From Octopus vulgaris (lineage: Eukaryota): 64,000 nt of DNA. The translations under genes and the position numbers were made by a program. The stretch covers positions 31,744,001 through 31,808,000 of the forward strand of contig OX597838.1 of NCBI GenBank assembly GCA_951406725.2. Direction: 5' to 3'. How positions within the stretch are numbered: the first letter of the stretch is position 1; every line of letters starts with the position of its first letter. Positions 15,615 through 58,105 of this stretch are shown piece after piece. The notes under the pieces are model-generated. The model saw only the letters and a list, made by a program, of their open reading frames with translations, made no database searches and was not told the DNA's origin.

Positions 15615-15797
15615 CCCTTTAGCATATAAACTGGTTCAAATCACACAGATCTAGTCTCTTACACTTACCCTACAATGTCATTCTAAAATTAAACAATCCC
15701 GATCTCAAACCTAGGAGATAATGCACGACTAATTGAAAACAACATGAATAAATAATTATTAAATGTGATGACAGAGTAATCTCTGAATGCTAAAGGA
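15615..15797 (+). mobile_element. piggyBac-type MITE, subfamily E1
   Basis: TTAA-ccctttagca ... tgctaaagga-TTAA. Confidence 0.8.
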
Positions 15798-15799
15798 TT

Positions 15800-16012
15800 A
15801 AGGTGGTGAGCTGGCAGAATAGTTAGCATACTGGACAAAATGGTTAACGGCATATGTTCTGAGTTCAAATTCCATCAAGGTTGACTTTGCCTTTCATCCT
15901 TTCAGGGTCGATAATGTAAGTACCAGTGGAGCACAGGAGCGGGGTGTGGCAATGTAATCAACTTATCCCTTCTCCTAAAATTGCTGGCGTTGTGTCAAAA
16001 TTTGAAACCATT
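15800..16012 (+). mobile_element. SINE family A
   Basis: aaggtggtgagctggcagaa...gcctttcatcctttcagggtcgat. Confidence 0.85.
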
Positions 16013-18306: not shown

Positions 18307-19113
18307 GTATGTGTTTGTAAATGTTTGGTAAGTACAGGCGTGGCTGTGTGGTTAAAAAGTTTGCTTCCCAACTGTGTGGGTTTAGGTTCAGTCTCATTGC
18401 ACAGCACCTTGGGTATTTCCTAACCAAAGCCATGTTAGTAGATTGGGTAGAGAGAACTGAAAAAGGTCCATCATACATGTGTGTGTGTGTTTACATTTGC
18501 ACTTCTCTGAAAGCACTGAGCTGCATGCAATGATATGTTGCCGTTTTCCATGTCTACAAAGCATCTGCTGGCTTTGCATCTTCAAAGATGTGTGGAATAA
18601 GAGATCTCTTGAAAAGCTGGTAAGAATTAGCAACAGGAAGGATATCTGGCTCTAATGCAATACCTCCATAATGCATTTGTCTAACCTAATCAAGCATGGA
18701 AAAAGGGACATGTAAACAAGTGGAATTATAATTAATATCTTTAGCTGAATGAAATTTTGTAAGGTGGTGCATATTGCCCTGAGTTCTTGTTATGTAAAGT
18801 TGTAACGTAGAGGAGGGAATAGAAATTGATTCTGAAATAAGCACTGTGATCAAATATTATCATAAGATGATGTATGCATACAACCATTATGTTCAAAGAC
18901 CTCATATATGTGTGTATGTGTGTATATATATATACATACATACATGCAACATATGTGTGCACATGTACATGTCTTTCTATCATATGTGGACACATGAAAC
19001 CTTGTTTTCACTCTTGTCTATCAAAATGGTTGAGTTACCTCTATAACTGGAACTATGATTGAATAATGGTGAATATATTCATATGAAATCATTGATATTA
19101 ATACTACTATTAA

Positions 19114-19336
19114 CCCTTTAGCATTTAAACCGGCCATATCCGGCCAAAAATATTCTACCTGTTTTATGTTCAAACTGGCCAGATCTGGTCTCTCACACCA
19201 ACCCTACAATATCGTTTTAAAAATTAACAGCTACCTCATCAAAATCTCATAGCTACAGGATAATGTATAATTTTATTTCAAAACAAAGTGGATAAAGAAG
19301 CATTAATTTTGGCAGAATAATGCGAACACTAAAGGG
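19114..19336 (+). mobile_element. piggyBac-type MITE, subfamily E2
   Basis: TTAA (19110-19113) ccctttag ... ctaaaggg TTAA (19337-19340). Confidence 0.9.
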
Positions 19337-19484
19337 TTAAAGGAAATTATTCATCTACCAATGTTGGCCACTTGCTCTTTATATTCTGGGTCTCCATCAT
19401 AACCCCTTCTCCTGGATCACATTACCTACTCTCATTGCCCTATCTTTTTTGGCCATGTTGCCTTCACTCTATGTACATGTCTTT

Positions 19485-27980: not shown

Positions 27981-28372
27981 CCCCCTTAGAATATTGGAAA
28001 ATTGGTGTTTAAAAAGAGTAGCTTTTTTTGAATAGGGAAATATGTACATTACTTTCCAGTTAGTCTCACTTTTCAGTTAGTCTCATCAAATTGATGAATT
28101 CTGAAACTTCTGGAATCTCATAATTTTATTCAATCTTCACAGTTTGGATTTGTCTCTAGCCTTAGCTGCTGTGGCAAGTGGTCAGCTCATTTTCCCTTTA
28201 GCATTTAAACTGGCCAAATCCTGCCCAATAGTCTATCAATTTTATGTTCAAACTGCCAATATCCAGCCTCTCACACCTACCCTACAGTGTCATTCTAAAA
28301 ATATACGATCATATCACCAAAATCTTATGGTTTTGAGATAATGCATGATTAATTCAAAACAATGTCAATAAA

Positions 28373-28627
28373 ACAATTGCAGCGTGGAAGGTGTTTGTAA
28401 GCGATTTAAGAAACACTCAAAAGCTGTTCGATTCACTTCAACATTTAAATTTAATTTGTCAAAATATTTTCGTCGCTTTAAGACTGCGACGTGTTCACTG
28501 ACAAAAATCTGTGCTGCATCTCAGCATGGATTTTTAAATGGCTTACAAACACCTTCCACGCTGCAATTGTTTTCGTTTCAGCACACGATCTCAGATCAAA
28601 TCACTTGCTATGCAAGTACATCTCCGT
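28373..28627. mobile_element. Fold-back retroelement (Penelope-like inverted pseudo-LTR), copy 1
   Basis: Inverted arms (acaattgcagcgtggaaggtgtttgtaag / cttacaaacaccttccacgctgcaattgt); one arm has a ~55-nt extension; TSD aatgtcaataaa/aatatcaataaa; contains a hammerhead. Confidence 0.75.
28455..28505 (-). ncRNA. Minimal type-I hammerhead ribozyme, G3-C8 core variant
   Basis: UUUGUCA-GUGAACA-C-GUCGC-aguc uuaaa-GCGAC-GAAA-AUAU-UU-UGACAAA: stem I 7 bp, stem II 5 bp, palindromic stem III. Confidence 0.7.
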
Positions 28628-29123
28628 AATATCAATAAATAAATAAAGATTACTTTTGACAGAGTAATCTGAATGCTAAGGGGTTAAAAGTCCATGAAGA
28701 CATCACCTAAATCACACATGGTGGCTCATGGGTTGATTTAATTAGTCTCAACTTCACCAAATCCTTTAATTGGACGTAGCAAGTCAAATATGGATGGCAG
28801 CGCTGGTGGTCAACTGGGAAAATAACTAAGAAATGAAGGGTTCAAATCATGTCATCCACTGGCGCTGCATTTTAGACTTTGTCATGACACTTGATAGTCA
28901 AATGTGTCGGTCACTGTAGCCAATTAGAACAACTCATCCCTCTAAAAGTTGCTCCTTAGCTTGCAGTACTAAGTTCAATCCCACTTATGGTTTGTATCTT
29001 GAAGATGGATACCCTTGATACAACATGTAGGGACAGAGCCCTGTTGTGGGGTACCAACAACTCAGTGAAACTATGTACCCCACCAGTGTAGTAGGGTACA
29101 TAAGTCAGCCTTTATAAACTTAC

Positions 29124-42498: not shown

Positions 42499-42900
42499 AC
42501 TTGTTGATTGAGATCTTTGGCATACGGATTATCAAGGTATGGTATATTTATGTATCTAATATAGAAGACAGAAAAGTGTTGCAGCATTGCTTACAAGCAT
42601 TGAATGCTGTAAAGTATTTAGCTTTTCAAAGTGGGAACATGTCTGTTGGAAACTGTATGACTTTTTTTTTTAAAGTAGGAACACGAAAGAAACTTTGAAA
42701 AGTGGCAAAGAGAAGTTAAGAATTTGGTTTGAGTGCTTTTTAGTTTCATTTGTAAATTCTGGTATTTCTACCTTACACACTCATACAGAGTTTTTGTTCC
42801 ACCCATTTACATAAATATTTAAGTCTGAGCAACAGAATCATCAATCTCACTTTGTGCAGGTCAGCAAAGGTCATTGGGGCTGCTGCCTTACCCTGTTTAA

Positions 42901-43121
42901 CCCTTTAGTGTTTGCATTATTCTGCCAAAATTAATCCTTTTTTATCCACATTGTTTTGAACTAATCATGCATTATGTTGTAGCTTTGAGATTTTGATGAG
43001 GTAACTGTTAACTTTTAAAATGATATTGTAGGGTTAGTGTGAGAGACCAGATCTGGTCAGTTTGAACATAAAACAGGCAGAGTACTTTTAGCCTGATATG
43101 GCCGGTTTAAAAGCTAAAGGG
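42901..43121 (-). mobile_element. piggyBac-type MITE, subfamily E2
   Basis: TTAA ccctttagtg ... ctaaaggg TTAA. Confidence 0.9.
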
Positions 43122-43361
43122 TTAAGAGAGAGAAACAGCAAAGCAGATAGCATATTTATGTTAGTAAGAATGAGGACATCACCTTCAGTTGTATTGAGTC
43201 AAAGCTTTAGTCAGATGTAAATGCGATAATGGAGATGTACTTGCATAGCAAGTGATTTGATCTGAGATCGTGTGCTGGAACGAAAACAATTGCAGCGTGG
43301 AAGGTGTTTGTAAGCCATTTAAGAAACACACAAAAGCTGTTCGATTTACTTCAACATTTAG

Positions 43362-43582
43362 CCCTTTAGTGTTCGCATTAGTCTGCCAAAATTAATGCCT
43401 TTTCATCCACATTGTTTTGAACTAATCATGCATTATCTTGTAGCTATGAGATTCTGATGAGGTAGCTGTTAATTTTTAAAACGATATTGTAGGGTTGGTG
43501 TGAGAGACCAGATCTGGCCAGTTTGAACATAAAACAGACAGAATACTTTTGGCCGGATATGGCCGGTTTGAATGCTAAAGGG
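43362..43582 (-). mobile_element. piggyBac-type MITE E2 nested at a TTAA in the fold-back element
   Basis: ttag ccctttagtg...ctaaaggg ttaa; the opposite arm preserves the empty site (caaattaaacttaaatgttg). Confidence 0.9.
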
Positions 43583-43592
43583 TTAAGTTTAA

Positions 43593-43643
43593 TTTGTCAA
43601 AATATTTTCGTCGCTTTAAGACCGCGACCTGTTCACTGACAAA
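43593..43643 (-). ncRNA. Minimal type-I hammerhead ribozyme, G3-C8 core variant
   Basis: UUUGUCA-GUGAACA-G-GUCGC-ggucuuaaa-GCGAC-GAAA-AUAU-UU-UGACAAA; mirror copy lacking the 5' strand of stem I at 43654-43697 (+) has stem II GUCAC/GUGAC. Confidence 0.75.
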
Positions 43644-44712
43644 AATCCGTGCTGTGAACAGGTCACGGTGTTAAAGTGACGAAAATATTTTGACAAATTA
43701 AACTTAAATGTTGAAGTGAATCGAACGGCTTTTGTGTGTTTCTTAAATGGTTTACAAACACCTTCCACGCTGCAATTGTGAATGCGATAATGTTTATGTA
43801 AACTGTATTTAATAGATGCTTATCTCTGGCCCCTTAAGTTACAATGGTTAACAACTCCTTCCTAAAGATATCCACCTGTAATATTATAACAAGCAGGTAA
43901 GCAGGTGAGTGGCAGTAGGTTAAGCTATATTGATTAGTTGCCCCCCATCCCAGTGTATTTACTGCCTTCAGCAGTACATTTGGCATAAAACACTTCTTTA
44001 TGGAAAGTTTGGGTTTCTGCTCGTTATTGGACAAGTTGTATGTACTTTGGGTGTGTTGGAATGTACTTGTGTGAGTTTGTGTCAAAATATTTGTGCATGC
44101 AATGCACGCACAACCTAATGCACACACGACCTAATGCACACACACACACAGAGGTATACACACATGCGCACACATATATATATAACTGAGTGTAGTTAGC
44201 TAATGTCAACCACACAAAACCTTTAAGTATGAAGAAATAATCCAGTTTACTGCCATGAAATTATGTTTGTATTTATGTAAGTCTATATGTAAGTGTATTT
44301 ATATATATATATATATATATATATACATGCACATACATTCATATGTATATATAATATTTTGTGAGTAATACATAAATTTAATATCTAGATACATGTGTGT
44401 GTATGTGTGTAAATAATTATATTTAAAAAAGAAAAAAGGACAATATGAAAAAGCCAGCAATATGTTTCCATTAACTTCATTGGTTTATTTGCAGCATTAT
44501 GGTGCCATTCTTGGGAATTTACAAAATAATCTCCTCAAAGACAGAACATTTGTCGAGCAGTTTTTATTTTAAGCTCTCTCAGCCAAATCAATAATATTTC
44601 CTGGCTTTCTTTATTGGATTTCTTTTAACACGAAATTGAATGCAAAAGATTGCGTCCCTATCGGAATATCTGACAAAAGTTCTGCTGCTTAGCTGATTTA
44701 TAAGATGTTGGC

Positions 44713-46521: not shown

Positions 46522-46887
46522 GCACACACATGCTCCTCTTCACCACCACCACCACCTCCTCTGCTGCTGCCGCTGCCGCTGCTGTTTGTACCTGAATTCA
46601 ATTGCTGGCAACAAAATATTCCACTCCCCTTGTTATCTTGATCTATTTAGTCTGTTTCAATCTTTATTAATCACACACACACACACACTAACACTAACAC
46701 ACGCACACACACACACACATATCCAGGCACGCACATTTCAAGATTGGCTGACGCGTGTGCACACAACATGCTGCTCTCACACGTGCAAAGTGTCGCACTT
46801 CTAACACACTTGTGCAGTGTCGTGCACACGAACATACAGGGTGCATTATTACTCCTAAAGCACATACCGCACACGTACATGTGTCTA

Positions 46888-47238
46888 TACACACACACAC
46901 ACACACACACACATACGCATATGTGTGCATACTAACAGAACCACATGTGTACACACACATGTATGCATACAAAAGACACACACACACACACACATACGCA
47001 TATGTGTGCATACTAACAGAACCACATGTGTACACACACATGTATGCATACAAAAGACACACACACACACACACATACGCATATGTGTGCATACTAACAG
47101 AACCACATGTGTACACACACATGTATGCATACAAAAGACACACACACACACACACATACGCATATGTGTGCATACTAACAGAACCACATGTGTACACACA
47201 TATGTATGCATACAAAAGACACACACACACACACACAC
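46888..47238. repeat. 81-bp minisatellite, about four near-identical copies
   Basis: actaacagaacc at 46931, 47012, 47093 and 47174. Confidence 0.95.
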
Positions 47239-47525
47239 AACCACATGTTCACAGAGAAACATTCACACACACACAGTTGGCATAGCTTGTCACATGTTCA
47301 TGTAAAAACAACACACACACACACACAACACACACATGCACATACACACACACAGTCTTAAGGTAACTTGCTAGGTCGCACACACGTACACATAACTGAA
47401 CATTTGTGCCATAACACTCACACACACTCAGGGTTCCTTATGTTTATCAAATCTCACTGCTACGTACACAGGGTAGTTATGTCCACCCAGCCATTCGCAT
47501 AGTCACCCAGATTGATGTACAGCTG

Positions 47526-54665: not shown

Positions 54666-55673
54666 TGAATGTTTGGGACAAAAGTCTTTAGTCTATTTTA
54701 TCAAAGTTAAAAGTTTCAGCATTTCCATATCAACTCCAAAACTGCCAAGACCTTACCTAACAATGGAGCCCTAACCAACAAGGAAGTCCTGACCAATGAG
54801 GCAGCTCTAACCAACAAGGAAGTCCGAACCAACAAGGGAACCCTAACCAATGAGGGAGTTCTAACCAATGCGTGAACCCTAACCAACAAGGGAACCTTAA
54901 CCAATATGCATCCCTAACTAATGAGGGAAACAACTACATGGAGATCCCCCTGATTGACTCATTACTGTTGTTGTTTAGCTCCAGATTATTCCTTCTTTTG
55001 GACATTGCATATGTAGGGCTACATCATCTTATGTATTTCTCCTTTGCAAGACAGCAGTGTTTAATTTGAGGGAGATAGTTCTACTATTTCTAATGGGCTG
55101 AACAACCACTTACAAATTTGTTTCATTAGTTAGGGATCCGTCATTGAATAGAGCTCCCTCATTGGTTAAAGCTCCCTTGTTTGCTGGAGACTCTTGTTGA
55201 TTAGGTCTCTTTCATTGGTTAATACTCCCTCATTAGTTAGGGATGCATATTGGTTGGTTAGGGTTCACTCATTGGTTAGAACTCCCTCATTGGTTAGGGT
55301 TCCCTTGTTGGTTAGGGTTCACTCATTGGTTAGAACTCCCTCATTGGTTAGGGTTCCCTTGTTGGTTAGGGTTCACTCATTGGTTAGAACTCCCTCATTG
55401 GTTAGGGTTCACTCATTGGTTAGAACTTCCTCATTGGTTAGGGCTCCCTTGTTGGTTAGGGTTCACTCATTGGTTAGAACTCCCTCATTGGTTAGGGCTC
55501 CCTTGTTGGTTCAGACTTCCTTGTTGGTTAGAGCTGCCTCATTGGTCAGGACTTCCTTGTTGGTTAGGGCTCCATTGTTAGGTAAGGTCTTGGCAGTTTT
55601 GGAGTTGATGTGGAAATGTTGAAACTTTTAACTTTGATAAAATAGACTTAAAGACTTTTGTCCCAAACATTCA
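54666..55673. repeat. ~1-kb inverted duplication whose arms contain an 18-bp TTAGGG-bearing minisatellite
   Basis: 54666-54927 is the reverse complement of 55225-55673 apart from array copy number; unit ttggttagggttcactca / ttggttagaactccctca / ttggttagggttcccttg. Confidence 0.9.
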
Positions 55674-56823
55674 ATTTTGGGATAATAGCAAAATAATTTT
55701 TGAATCGATTGTGTCTAAAGTCTATATGATATCTGGTTTTCACTTGATAGCTTTCTGTAATGGATGTACCGTGTAATATTCTTTATATAATCAAGAAAGA
55801 AATAAAGAAATCTGTTTTTATCTCATGATTCAAGAAAATTCTGCTATTGATCCAGACAGTTGATATTCTGGCGAGCAATGTCCTTTTCACATATATTCAA
55901 AACAGAAAAGCTTTTCTTTACTAGTAAGAGCCCTACTTGTAACCAAATAGGAAATTCTTGTACACCTAAATACATCACATTTTTTCTTGTGCTCTCTCTG
56001 TCTCTCTCTCTCTCTCTCACACACACACAAAAAGCACTATGTTGTCAAAACATTCTTCAGTTCTTCAGCTTTGAAGTCTCTCTGAAACCATATTTTAATA
56101 TTTTCTCAAACAACACTGGAAGTTAAAAAACAAAATAATAATTCATTAAAAAAATTTGTATGTATGTATGTGTATGTTTGTGTGTACATACACATGCATG
56201 TATGCATATACATATGTGTGTGTGTTTGTGTGTGTGTGTTATATAGATAAGTGCATGTGTGTGTGTGTGTGTATTGTGATAAAGTTCAAATAAATCCTTG
56301 CAATGATTTAAAGTAAATATTTTCCTTCGGAGTTAATCTCCCAATGTTGTTGAAGTTTCCCTACAAATATATCATCACCGGTCTACACCCACCTTCCAGG
56401 TGTGTTTTTAATTGCACCAGGTACGAAGTAGATCTGATCTCTGATGTAGATAAGGGAGAGAAAGTTATTCTTGCTGGTACCTAGCTGAAAGGCACCTTCA
56501 GTATCCACACCTTTGTGTGTGCATGTGCGCCTCCTCCACACACTCTCTCTCTCCCTCTCTCCCTCTCTCTCTCCCTCTCTCTCCCTCTCTCTCCTGCTCC
56601 CCCTCTCTTTGTCACACATTCACATATCCACTCACCCACACAGATGGAGGTGTTAGCCCAGAGCTAGAGAGCTTGCCTCAAACTGCAACTGATGCATCTT
56701 TATCTGCAAATTACGTGCAGTGTGGAAATATGTCTGATTAGTATCACCGCTGTCATGTTGCTGAAGACTTGGCCTTTAGATTCACATCTGCTTTATTCTG
56801 TTAACTTCCCTTTATCTCTTTAA

Positions 56824-57039
56824 CCCTTTAGCATTCAGATTACTTTGTCAAATGTGACGTTTGTTTATTCGTATTCTTTTGAATTAATCATGCTTTGTCT
56901 CTTGGCTCCAAGATTTTGATGATGTGAATGTTTATTTTTAGAATGACATTGCAAGACTGGTTTGAAAGGTTGGATCTGGCCACTTTGAACATAAAACAGG
57001 TAGAATATTTAGGCTGGGTACGACTTGTTTAAATGCTAA
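56824..57039 (-). mobile_element. piggyBac-type MITE E1, one end damaged
   Basis: TTAA ccctttagcattcagattac...gtttaaatgctaa. Confidence 0.8.
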
Positions 57040-57244: not shown

Positions 57245-58105
57245 TGACCCTGCCAGTGATGGTGTCACATAAAAGCACCCAGTACACTCTGTAAAGTGGT
57301 TGGCATTATGATGAACATTCAGTTGTAGAAACCATGCCTAAATGGACAATAGAGCTTGCTTGGTACAGCTCCTGGCCTTGTCAGCTCCTGGCCTTGTCAG
57401 CTCCTGGCCTTGTCAGCTCCTGGCCTTGTCAGCTCCTGGCCTTGTCAGCTCCTGGCCTTGTCAGCTCCTGGCCTTGTCAGCCCTGCCTTGTCAGCTTGGT
57501 CTTGGCCCTGCCAGTGATGGTGTCACATAAAAAGCACCCAGTACACTCTGTAAAGTGGTTGGCATTATGATGAACATTCAGTTGTAGAAACCATGGCCTT
57601 GTCAGCTCCTGGCCTTGTCAGCTCCTTGCCTTGTCAGCTCCTGGCTTTGTCAGCTCCTGGCCTTGTCAGCTCCTGGCCTTGTCAGCTCCTGGCCTTGTCA
57701 GCTCCTGGCCTTGTCAGCTCCTGGCCTTGTCAGCTCCTGGGCCTTGTCAGCTCCTGGCCTTGTCAGCTCCTTGCCTTGTCAGCTCCTGGCCTTGTCAGCT
57801 CTTGGCCTTGTCAGCTCTTGGCCTTGTCAGCTCCTGGCCTTGTCAGCTCCTTGCCTTGTCAGCTCTTGGCCTTGTCAGCTCCTGGCCTTGTCAGCTCCTT
57901 GGGCCTTCTCAGCTCCTGGCCTTCTCAGCTCCTGGCCTTCTCAGCTCCTGGCCTTGTCAGCTCTTGGCCTTGTCAGCTCCTGGCCTTGTCAGCTCCTGGC
58001 CTTGTCAGCTCCTGGCCTTGTCAGCTCCTGGTCTTGTCAGCTCCTGTCAGACTGTCCAACCCATGCCAGCATGGATAATAGACATAAAATGATGATGATG
58101 ATGAT
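57245..58105 (+). mobile_element. Family C retroposon expanded by a 16-bp minisatellite (ctggccttgtcagctc)n and a ~90-bp internal duplication
   Basis: Arrays at 57367-57500 and 57594-58045; duplicated ccctgccagtgatggtg...gtagaaaccatg at 57248 and 57506; (gat)n tail. Confidence 0.9.

What the first reader, a model, noticed from the sequence alone, without database searches (positions are those of the whole stretch)
43216..43792. Fold-back retroelement carrying a compensatory G3-C8 minimal hammerhead ribozyme (Penelope-like)
Seen: three copies of the same ribozyme-shaped motif (28455-28505 -, 43593-43643 -, partial 43654-43697 +). Each has core GUGAACA, a 5-bp stem II, GAAA, palindromic AAUAUU and a UUU cleavage triplet; the two complete copies have a 7-bp stem I. 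Stem II stays paired across copies (GUCGC/GCGAC vs GUCAC/GUGAC), though CpG decay on both strands could produce this. Established: C3 and G8 of the CUGANGA core form a Watson-Crick pair, so G3/C8 is the compensatory swap; minimal type-I hammerheads with a palindromic stem III typify Penelope-like pseudo-LTRs and are thought to cleave as dimers. Both elements have inverted arms ending at the same point (acaattgcag) on one side, a ~55-nt extension on the other, and 12-16-bp TSDs, which fits retrotransposition rather than cut-and-paste. Inference: a ribozyme-bearing non-autonomous PLE family that CUGANGA-based searches would miss and that is likely annotated as a DNA MITE.
Basis: partly seen in the sequence, partly recalled or inferred. 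Interest (0 to 1): 0.8.

Follow-up and report, generated by a model that had tools for sequence, protein, structure and literature searches.

The report
Penelope retroelement hammerhead with flipped core
This fold-back repeat is the cut-short end of a Penelope-like retrotransposon with thousands of copies in this genome, and it carries a small hammerhead-ribozyme motif whose core base pair is flipped (G-C instead of the usual C-G), likely a natural variant that standard searches miss, though its self-cutting is untested.

Summary
The three motifs are present at the stated coordinates. The element is the 5'-truncated, partly inverted end (pseudo-LTR) of a Penelope-like retrotransposon. Its coding parent sits elsewhere in the genome: RT, Cys-rich linker and C-terminal GIY-YIG, with the identical core about 1.0 kb after the stop and just before the next start codon. 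At least 4,548 copies match the motif's 5' half. G3-C8 is the family state; only 2 genome copies read C3-G8. In eight related families (three from this genome, five from metagenomes) positions 3 and 8 always pair: C-G 4, U-A 3, G-C 1. Stem II also covaries, so the hammerhead reading is well supported. Corrections: the stem II 'covariation' inside the window is CpG decay; an extra base follows A9; a separate TTAA-flanked MITE is nested in one arm; the copies are truncations of a coding family, not a non-autonomous family. Cleavage is untested, and no copy begins at the predicted cut. I found natural G3-C8 in no paper I could read, but a key paper (Lünse 2017) was unavailable. This scan earlier noted similar G3-C8 candidates in two other genomes.

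The parts
43220..43231 (+). Left target-site duplication (12 bp)
   Evidence: Exact repeat at 43781-43792
43232..43285 (-). ~55-nt Penelope-type 'tail' (3' extension of the long arm), inside the first 30 codons of the parent ORF
   Evidence: Reference positions 170-225; 110 of 115 copy 3' ends fall at one of the two ends of this stretch
43286..43361 (-). Long arm, part 3' of the nested MITE; holds the predicted start codon (43318-43316) of the parent ORF
   Evidence: Matches reference 96-170; the reading from here resembles the N-terminus of the intact sister ORF and runs on into ORF remains in L135
43362..43582 (.). Nested, unrelated MITE with CCCTTTAG/CTAAAGGG ends and TTAA target duplication (left copy TTAG); piggyBac-like by recalled criteria
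   Evidence: Other copies at 42896-43126, 19107-19341, 28194-28688 (split) and 56816-57039; the intact arm reads through a single TTAA
43593..43643 (-). Minimal type I hammerhead motif: stem I 43643-43637 with 43599-43593; G3 43636; C8 43631; A9 43630; extra G 43629; stem II 43628-43624 with 43614-43610; G12 43609; palindrome 43606-43601; U17 43600; predicted cut between 43600 and 43599
   Evidence: Sequence and fold; pairing across families
43644..43654 (-). 5' leader of the long arm, truncated a few bases downstream of the AG where most copies begin
   Evidence: Reference position 28; 5'-end cluster
43654..43780 (+). Inverted, 5'-truncated short arm (no tail); starts at G3, so its hammerhead is incomplete
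   Evidence: Reference 46-170
43781..43792 (+). Right target-site duplication
28373..28627 (.). Second insertion of the family: short arm on - (28524-28373) with a complete hammerhead motif, tailed piece on + (28531-28627); 12-bp duplication with one mismatch
28455..28505 (-). Second complete G3-C8 hammerhead motif (extra base C)

Best explanation
The repeat is a 5'-truncated, partly inverted insertion of the pseudo-LTR end of a Penelope-like retrotransposon (RT followed by a GIY-YIG nuclease), and it carries a minimal hammerhead motif with a natural G3-C8 core pair that likely cuts its own RNA only weakly, predicted to need a second copy or the element's protein. Shown: the parent ORF, the motif's place between the stop codon and the next start codon, two fixed 3' ends ~55 nt apart, variable target duplications, frequent (TA)n flanks, and Watson-Crick pairing of positions 3 and 8 in all eight related families examined. 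Inferred from published work on other Penelope-like elements: the nuclease nicks AT-rich DNA, reverse transcription starts at either of two internal RNA sites, giving arms with and without the tail, and early termination gives the short single or fold-back copies. Inferred: the 6-nt palindrome is too short for a monomer stem III and pairs between two motifs. Cutting does not set the copy ends: the templates copied were uncut.
For: Parent: a 1,025-aa open frame in L127 with RT motifs (YSRYVDD), a C-x3-C-x2-C linker and GIY-YIG above the Pfam cut-off; the same core lies about 1.0 kb downstream on the same strand in L127, L128, L129 and L146. All 6 widely spaced inverted pairs fetched hold RT or nuclease coding remains. 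L135 has the motif running into ORF remains. Ends: 110 of 115 pieces end at reference 165-174 or 221-226; 26 of 28 inverted insertions combine one long and one short arm, among 52 insertions, the arrangement described in PMC8557442 and explained in PMC11167929. Motif: stems I and II have pair probabilities of 0.69-1.0 in the 205-nt unit. In 8 families the 3-8 pair is CG 4, UA 3, GC 1; all 48 cells of that pair and stem II are paired; covariation score 1.15 with 0 of 500 shuffles as high and slid controls 0.27 or less. Variants shared by 15% or more of copies hit 0 of 41 core and stem positions, 4 of 8 loop II positions and 10 of 127 other positions. The engineered C3G/G8C form of another Penelope-like hammerhead keeps partial activity (PMC11167929).
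Against: No cleavage data. None of 80 mapped 5' ends lies at reference 80-84, the predicted cut; 41 of 80 lie at 19-31, upstream of the whole motif (part of this sample was selected on the motif). The folding model extends stem I by a G3-U17 wobble with probability 0.67, which would compete with G3-C8. The palindrome duplex is worth only -0.2 kcal/mol and the two-strand minimum-energy folds did not use it. Relatives show other core departures: C9 in family B and L177, G4 in L183, which may mean relaxed catalysis. The 0/41 versus 10/127 contrast is only p = 0.056, and the loop II count is inflated by a 1-nt indel. G-C rests on one lineage; the eight families are related and were parsed with the hammerhead in mind (L183 and L185 by eye); L179-L181 and L186 showed no motif in the DNA held. 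Within the family there is no 3-8 covariation: 13 of 33 double changes pair, about 10 expected from the margins.
Confidence: 0.6

Rival explanations
1. Same element, but the motif is a hammerhead-derived fold that no longer cuts. It is kept as a structural signal (protein binding, dimerisation or translation control before the start codon), and G3-C8 is tolerated because only the fold matters.
For: Copies come from uncut RNA. Predicted G3-U17 pairing. A9 is replaced by C in family B, whose ORFs are intact. In PMC11167929 hammerhead mutants did not affect insertion in vitro and no RNA-seq reads began or ended at the cut site.
Against: The 3-8 pair is a contact of the active conformation (established knowledge; PMC3088659 section 8), and it stays Watson-Crick in 8 of 8 families. 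G5, A6, G12, A13, A14 and A15.1 are invariant in that alignment.
Confidence: 0.3
2. The short units are a separate non-autonomous family (retrozyme-like) that spreads through self-cut, circular or tandem RNA and borrows the RT.
For: Head-to-tail arrays of ~215-265-nt units exist (L004-L006, L014). Short copies outnumber long ones: 4,548 motif matches against 261 exact matches to the upstream 24-mer. Many 5' ends pile up at one point.
Against: Unit borders do not fall at the predicted cut. Array units are separated by (TA)n of varying length and each ends at the tail. The main loop II variants are also found on long copies.
Confidence: 0.08
3. A cut-and-paste DNA MITE with long terminal inverted repeats, in which the hammerhead likeness is chance.
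For: Fold-back look of the two window copies; many copies sit in TA runs.
Against: 24 of 52 insertions are single arms; arms are unequal and variably truncated; target duplications vary in length and sequence; the arm is the end of an RT and GIY-YIG element.
Confidence: 0.02

Closest known systems
Minimal type I hammerheads in pseudo-LTRs of Penelope-like elements (Cervera and de la Pena 2014, PMC4209133)
   Same: Position in the pseudo-LTR, extra base between 9 and 10.1, G10.1-C11.1, palindromic stem III, no loop-loop contacts evident, candidate intron end just 5' of stem I as in Drosophila virilis Penelope.
   Different: G3-C8 core. Their Fig. S3 lists 56 motifs: 53 C3-G8, 2 U3-A8, 1 U3 with G8, none with G3, but their descriptor started from the C3 core. 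Stem I here is 7 bp, longer than most in that figure.
C-terminal GIY-YIG Penelope-like elements with a CX2-5CxxC linker (Neptune and Nematis clades; Craig et al. 2021, PMC8557442)
   Same: RT then linker then GIY-YIG, two cysteines inside the GIY-YIG motif, (TA)n targets, inverted 5'-truncated copy, tail on one side.
   Different: Tail ~55 nt against the 30-40 bp described. Neptune versus Nematis not resolved: no named reference sequences were available.
Poseidon element PAc of Anolis (PMC11167929)
   Same: Hammerhead beside the ORF start; tail lies within the ORF start; copies derive from uncut RNA.
   Different: PAc has C3-G8, and G3-C8 was only an engineered partial-rescue mutant. Here it is the wild type of thousands of copies.
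Natural U3-A8 hammerheads (Perreault et al. 2011, PMC3088659; Cercyon in PMC4209133)
   Same: Natural compensatory change of the 3-8 pair.
   Different: U3-A8 is two transitions and keeps a purine at 8; G3-C8 is two transversions and puts a pyrimidine at the residue whose 2'-OH is proposed as general acid (PMC6155905 passage).
Animal non-LTR retrozymes (bioRxiv 10.64898/2026.07.22.740005)
   Same: Short tandem units with type I hammerheads related to Penelope pseudo-LTRs.
   Different: Tandems are a minority here, have (TA)n spacers and end at the tail, not at the cut site.

Membership tests
Penelope-like element, C-terminal EN+ | Single ORF with RT followed by GIY-YIG nuclease, linked to the repeat | tested here: met
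   L127 1,025-aa frame: GIY-YIG above Pfam cut-off. RT read from motifs and from atlas neighbours carrying RVT_1, HTH_animal and GIY-YIG; Pfam RVT_1 itself did not hit L127. No full-length intact family-A ORF among the copies fetched.
Penelope-like element, C-terminal EN+ | Pseudo-LTR: the 3' end repeats the start of the ORF | tested here: met
   The unit's 3' part reads like the intact sister ORF's N-terminus; L135 runs from the motif into ORF remains
Penelope-like element, C-terminal EN+ | 5' truncation, inverted partial copy, one-sided tail, variable target duplication | tested here: met
Penelope-like element, C-terminal EN+ | Retained spliceosomal intron in the pseudo-LTR | tested here: inconclusive
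   Branch-point-like CTAAC, pyrimidine run and AG just 5' of the unit (261 exact matches); no spliced join seen, so splicing is not shown
Neptune or Nematis clade | CX2-5CxxC linker before the nuclease and CCHH motif | tested here: met
   C-x3-C-x2-C before the GIY-like motif, two Cys before YIG and two downstream His in the L127 translation, read by eye (criteria)
Neptune or Nematis clade | Placement in an RT tree with named references | not tested
   The tree held no named Neptune or Nematis sequence
Minimal type I hammerhead ribozyme | Core U4 G5 A6, A9, G12 A13 A14, A15.1-U16.1, H17 with stems I and II | tested here: met
Minimal type I hammerhead ribozyme | Literal C3 and G8 | tested here: not met
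   G3 and C8 in 90 of the first 100 listed copies, none with both changed; 2 C3-G8 copies genome-wide
Minimal type I hammerhead ribozyme | Watson-Crick pair between positions 3 and 8 | tested here: met
   8 of 8 families: CG 4, UA 3, GC 1
Minimal type I hammerhead ribozyme | Palindromic stem III able to pair in a dimer | tested here: inconclusive
   Palindrome present; duplex only -0.2 kcal/mol and not in the two-strand minimum-energy folds
Minimal type I hammerhead ribozyme | Self-cleavage 3' of position 17 | not testable with these tools
   Needs an in vitro assay or raw RNA ends
DNA MITE | Symmetric terminal inverted repeats and fixed target duplication | tested here: not met
   (met only by the separate nested MITE)
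Non-LTR retrozyme | Tandem units bounded by ribozyme cuts, circular RNA | tested here: inconclusive
   Some tandems exist but their borders are not at the cut; circular RNA not testable

The most novel reading that the evidence does not exclude
A natural, active G3-C8 hammerhead ribozyme, not reported before, fixed in a high-copy animal retrotransposon. It belongs to a Penelope-like lineage in which the catalytic 3-8 pair flips freely among C-G, U-A and G-C, so that all three states live in one genome and CUGANGA-based surveys have undercounted these ribozymes, perhaps also in elements called hammerhead-less.
Probability: 0.4. Interest if true: 0.62.

Novelty: new variant of a known kind. Interest (0 to 1): 0.45.

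Why it matters
The C3-G8 pair was established from structure and engineered double mutants, and in the papers I could read only U3-A8 is reported as a natural alternative. A wild-type G3-C8 core in thousands of copies, with C3-G8 and U3-A8 sister families in the same genome, is natural evidence that the pair and not the letters is conserved. It gives a ready three-way test of whether Penelope hammerheads need to cut at all, and shows that search descriptors should allow any 3-8 pair. The element itself is an ordinary Penelope-like retrotransposon.

Tried and rejected
Rfam scan of the window: no match. Stem II covariation inside the family: rejected as CpG decay. A canonical C3-G8 subfamily: none; 33 copies have both positions changed, 2 to C-G, 3 to U-A, 8 to A-U. 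Spliced form at the best-looking donor: 0 genome matches at up to 1 mismatch. Sequencing runs: no RNA holder listed on record. Four guessed-RNA contig sets laid on L063 showed no splice-like joint and cannot show ends or levels; the depth step near the predicted cut coincides with loop II differences and is not used. Dimer through the palindrome: not recovered by minimum-energy folding. Solved-structure search with the 45-protein profile: one weak RT hit, E 0.0012. The tool for DNA around public proteins was closed, so none of the 67 homologues was checked for the motif. Of 16 metagenome loci, the descriptor found 3 motifs and I read 2 more by eye; the rest are short or showed none. Weak descriptor hits in L136, L137, L141 and L143 away from ORF ends were set aside as chance. 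Literature: seven searches ran; 'hammerhead' with 'G3-C8' gave one paper, on an engineered variant. Lünse 2017, Przybilski and Hammann 2007 and Martick and Scott 2006 were not held. Figure-only supplements, part 3 of the Cervera supplement and the supplements of Craig 2021 were not seen and could hold a natural G3-C8 case.

Full report
Observation. The three motifs, the arms, the extension and the target duplications are in the window as described. The second element, 28373-28627, is inserted into another copy of that MITE family. Rfam has no match at gathering thresholds.

Copy number and anatomy. The window lies in a 2.8-Gb genome. A 24-position pattern over the motif's 5' half has 4,548 exact matches and its control 0; an arm 23-mer has 6,499. 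For three sets of 30 loci taken in list order from pattern searches, 110 of 115 distinct pieces end at reference 165-174 (50) or 221-226 (60). Of 52 distinct insertions from two of these sets, 24 are single arms and 28 inverted pairs, 26 of them one long and one short arm. Flanks are often (TA)n; where unique, duplications of about 10-14 bp with different sequences are seen. Head-to-tail arrays also occur. This is the layout given for Penelope-like elements in PMC8557442 (passages). PMC11167929 (passages and the second half of the main text) ties the tail to two internal reverse-transcription start sites.

The parent. A conserved 24-mer upstream of some units (261 matches) led to six inverted pairs 2-5 kb apart, all holding RT or nuclease coding remains. 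A protein search of the genome gave about 30 matches at 78-100% identity and over 100 at 62-73%; I fetched 20 regions. L127 has a 1,025-aa open frame with RT motifs, a C-x3-C-x2-C linker and GIY-YIG above the Pfam cut-off, and the G3-C8 motif lies about 1.0 kb after the stop on the same strand in L127, L128, L129 and L146. The unit's 3' part reads like the N-terminus of the intact 1,312-aa ORF of sister family B, and in the decayed copy L135 the motif leads into ORF remains. So the unit is the pseudo-LTR end and the extension is the tail. No intact full-length family-A ORF was among the copies fetched. By eye, family B matches public protein P0002, which its source labels Octopus vulgaris, so the genome is probably an octopus.

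Is the motif a hammerhead? Inside the family, variation looks like decay after insertion. G3 and C8 are both present in 90 of the first 100 listed copies; 33 copies genome-wide have both changed, 2 of them to C-G, with no excess of pairing (13 against about 10). The evidence comes from relatives. At the same place before the start codon, family B has C3-G8 with C9, and family C has U3-A8 in most of about 25 copies shown. Five of 16 metagenome loci carry the motif just after the ORF: L178, L183 and L185 with C3-G8, L177 and L184 with U3-A8. On an unforced MAFFT alignment of one motif per family the 3-8 pair and the five stem II pairs are paired in 48 of 48 cells, five of six pairs change on both sides, and no shuffle of 500 or slid control approaches the covariation score. 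These families are kin and the shuffle ignores kinship, so this is not a probability. In the protein tree families A, B and C form one supported clade (95/97), and C-G and U-A are both scattered among the outside lineages; G-C is seen only in family A and is most simply derived. The older relative L136 also has G3, with A at 8. Shared subfamily variants avoid the core and stems (0 of 41 positions, against 4 of 8 in loop II and 10 of 127 elsewhere; p = 0.056 for the last contrast).

How it most likely works. Shown: the element, its ends and the pairing pattern. Inferred: transcription of a tandem or read-through copy, nicking of AT-rich DNA, reverse transcription from one of two internal sites and early termination, giving short single or fold-back copies. 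Inferred: the motif cuts weakly after U17 when two motifs pair through the palindrome or when the element's protein helps it fold; PMC4209133 reports low activity of dimers, and PMC11167929 reports protein-assisted cutting and partial activity of C3G/G8C. Against strong or necessary cutting: none of 80 mapped 5' ends is at the predicted cut and 41 lie just upstream of the whole motif; the model predicts a competing G3-U17 wobble (0.67); the palindrome duplex is marginal; relatives carry C9 or G4. In fold-back copies a read-through RNA would pair arm with arm and probably mask the motif (inference). My odds: element identity about 0.95, hammerhead homology about 0.9, measurable cutting about 0.6.

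Comparison and novelty. It is a Penelope-like element with a C-terminal nuclease of the Neptune or Nematis type, and its motif meets the minimal hammerhead features except the literal C3 and G8. Natural U3-A8 is published (PMC3088659 section 8 and passages; PMC4209133 main text parts 1-2 of 4 and supplement parts 1-2 of 3). The 56 motifs of that supplement include none with G3. Searches for G3-C8 or C3G/G8C returned only engineered cases (passages of PMC8495972 and PMC3884650). Passages of PMC10085705, PMC6155905, PMC6765202 and PMC6466107, and part 1 of 5 plus passages of bioRxiv 10.64898/2026.07.22.740005, showed no natural case. Lünse 2017, the likeliest place for a prior report, was not held, so 'not reported' is limited to what I could read. 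Two earlier notes of this scan describe G3-C8 candidates beside Penelope-like RTs in other genomes; they are unchecked and are not counted as support. The piggyBac label for the nested MITE and the Hertel numbering are recalled knowledge.

Verdict. Observation confirmed; interpretation largely right, but the family has a coding parent and cutting is unproven. New variant of a known kind; interest 0.45.

Noticed in passing
window 43362-43582, 42896-43126, 19107-19341, 28194-28688, 56816-57039, 15634-15801: A ~220-bp MITE family with CCCTTTAG ends and TTAA target sites (piggyBac-like by recalled criteria). It sits inside one Penelope copy and hosts the other, so the two families overlapped in time.
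   Followed up: partly
L131-L134 (G000 C15, C17, C22, C1): Sister family B has several copies with an intact 1,312-aa ORF and near-identical UTRs, so it is probably recently active. Its hammerhead has C in place of A9 in all copies printed; L177 also has C9.
   Followed up: partly
L142:5373-5420, L147-L176: Family C: an older, abundant Penelope-like family with a U3-A8 hammerhead and a stem I of about 3 bp.
   Followed up: partly
L062 unit start; genome-wide copies: 5' ends of short copies pile up within a few bases of AG|ATGCAG, which follows a branch-point-like CTAAC and pyrimidine run. No upstream exon is joined in any of 58 copies lacking that upstream stretch. A splice acceptor, a transcription start or an RT stop would each fit; unexplained.
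   Followed up: partly
L004-L006, L014: Head-to-tail arrays of 4-5 units with (TA)n spacers of varying length; natural substrates for a dimer test.
   Followed up: no
L061:1220-2108 (-): A mariner-like transposase remnant (recognised by eye, not scanned) inserted in a Penelope copy.
   Followed up: no
L183:1672-1722: Relative with C3-G8 but G at position 4; a single contig, so it may be a decayed copy.
   Followed up: no
window 54687-55651, 57310-58030, 46814-47299: An 18-bp minisatellite present in both orientations, a 16-bp array and an 81-bp array.
   Followed up: no
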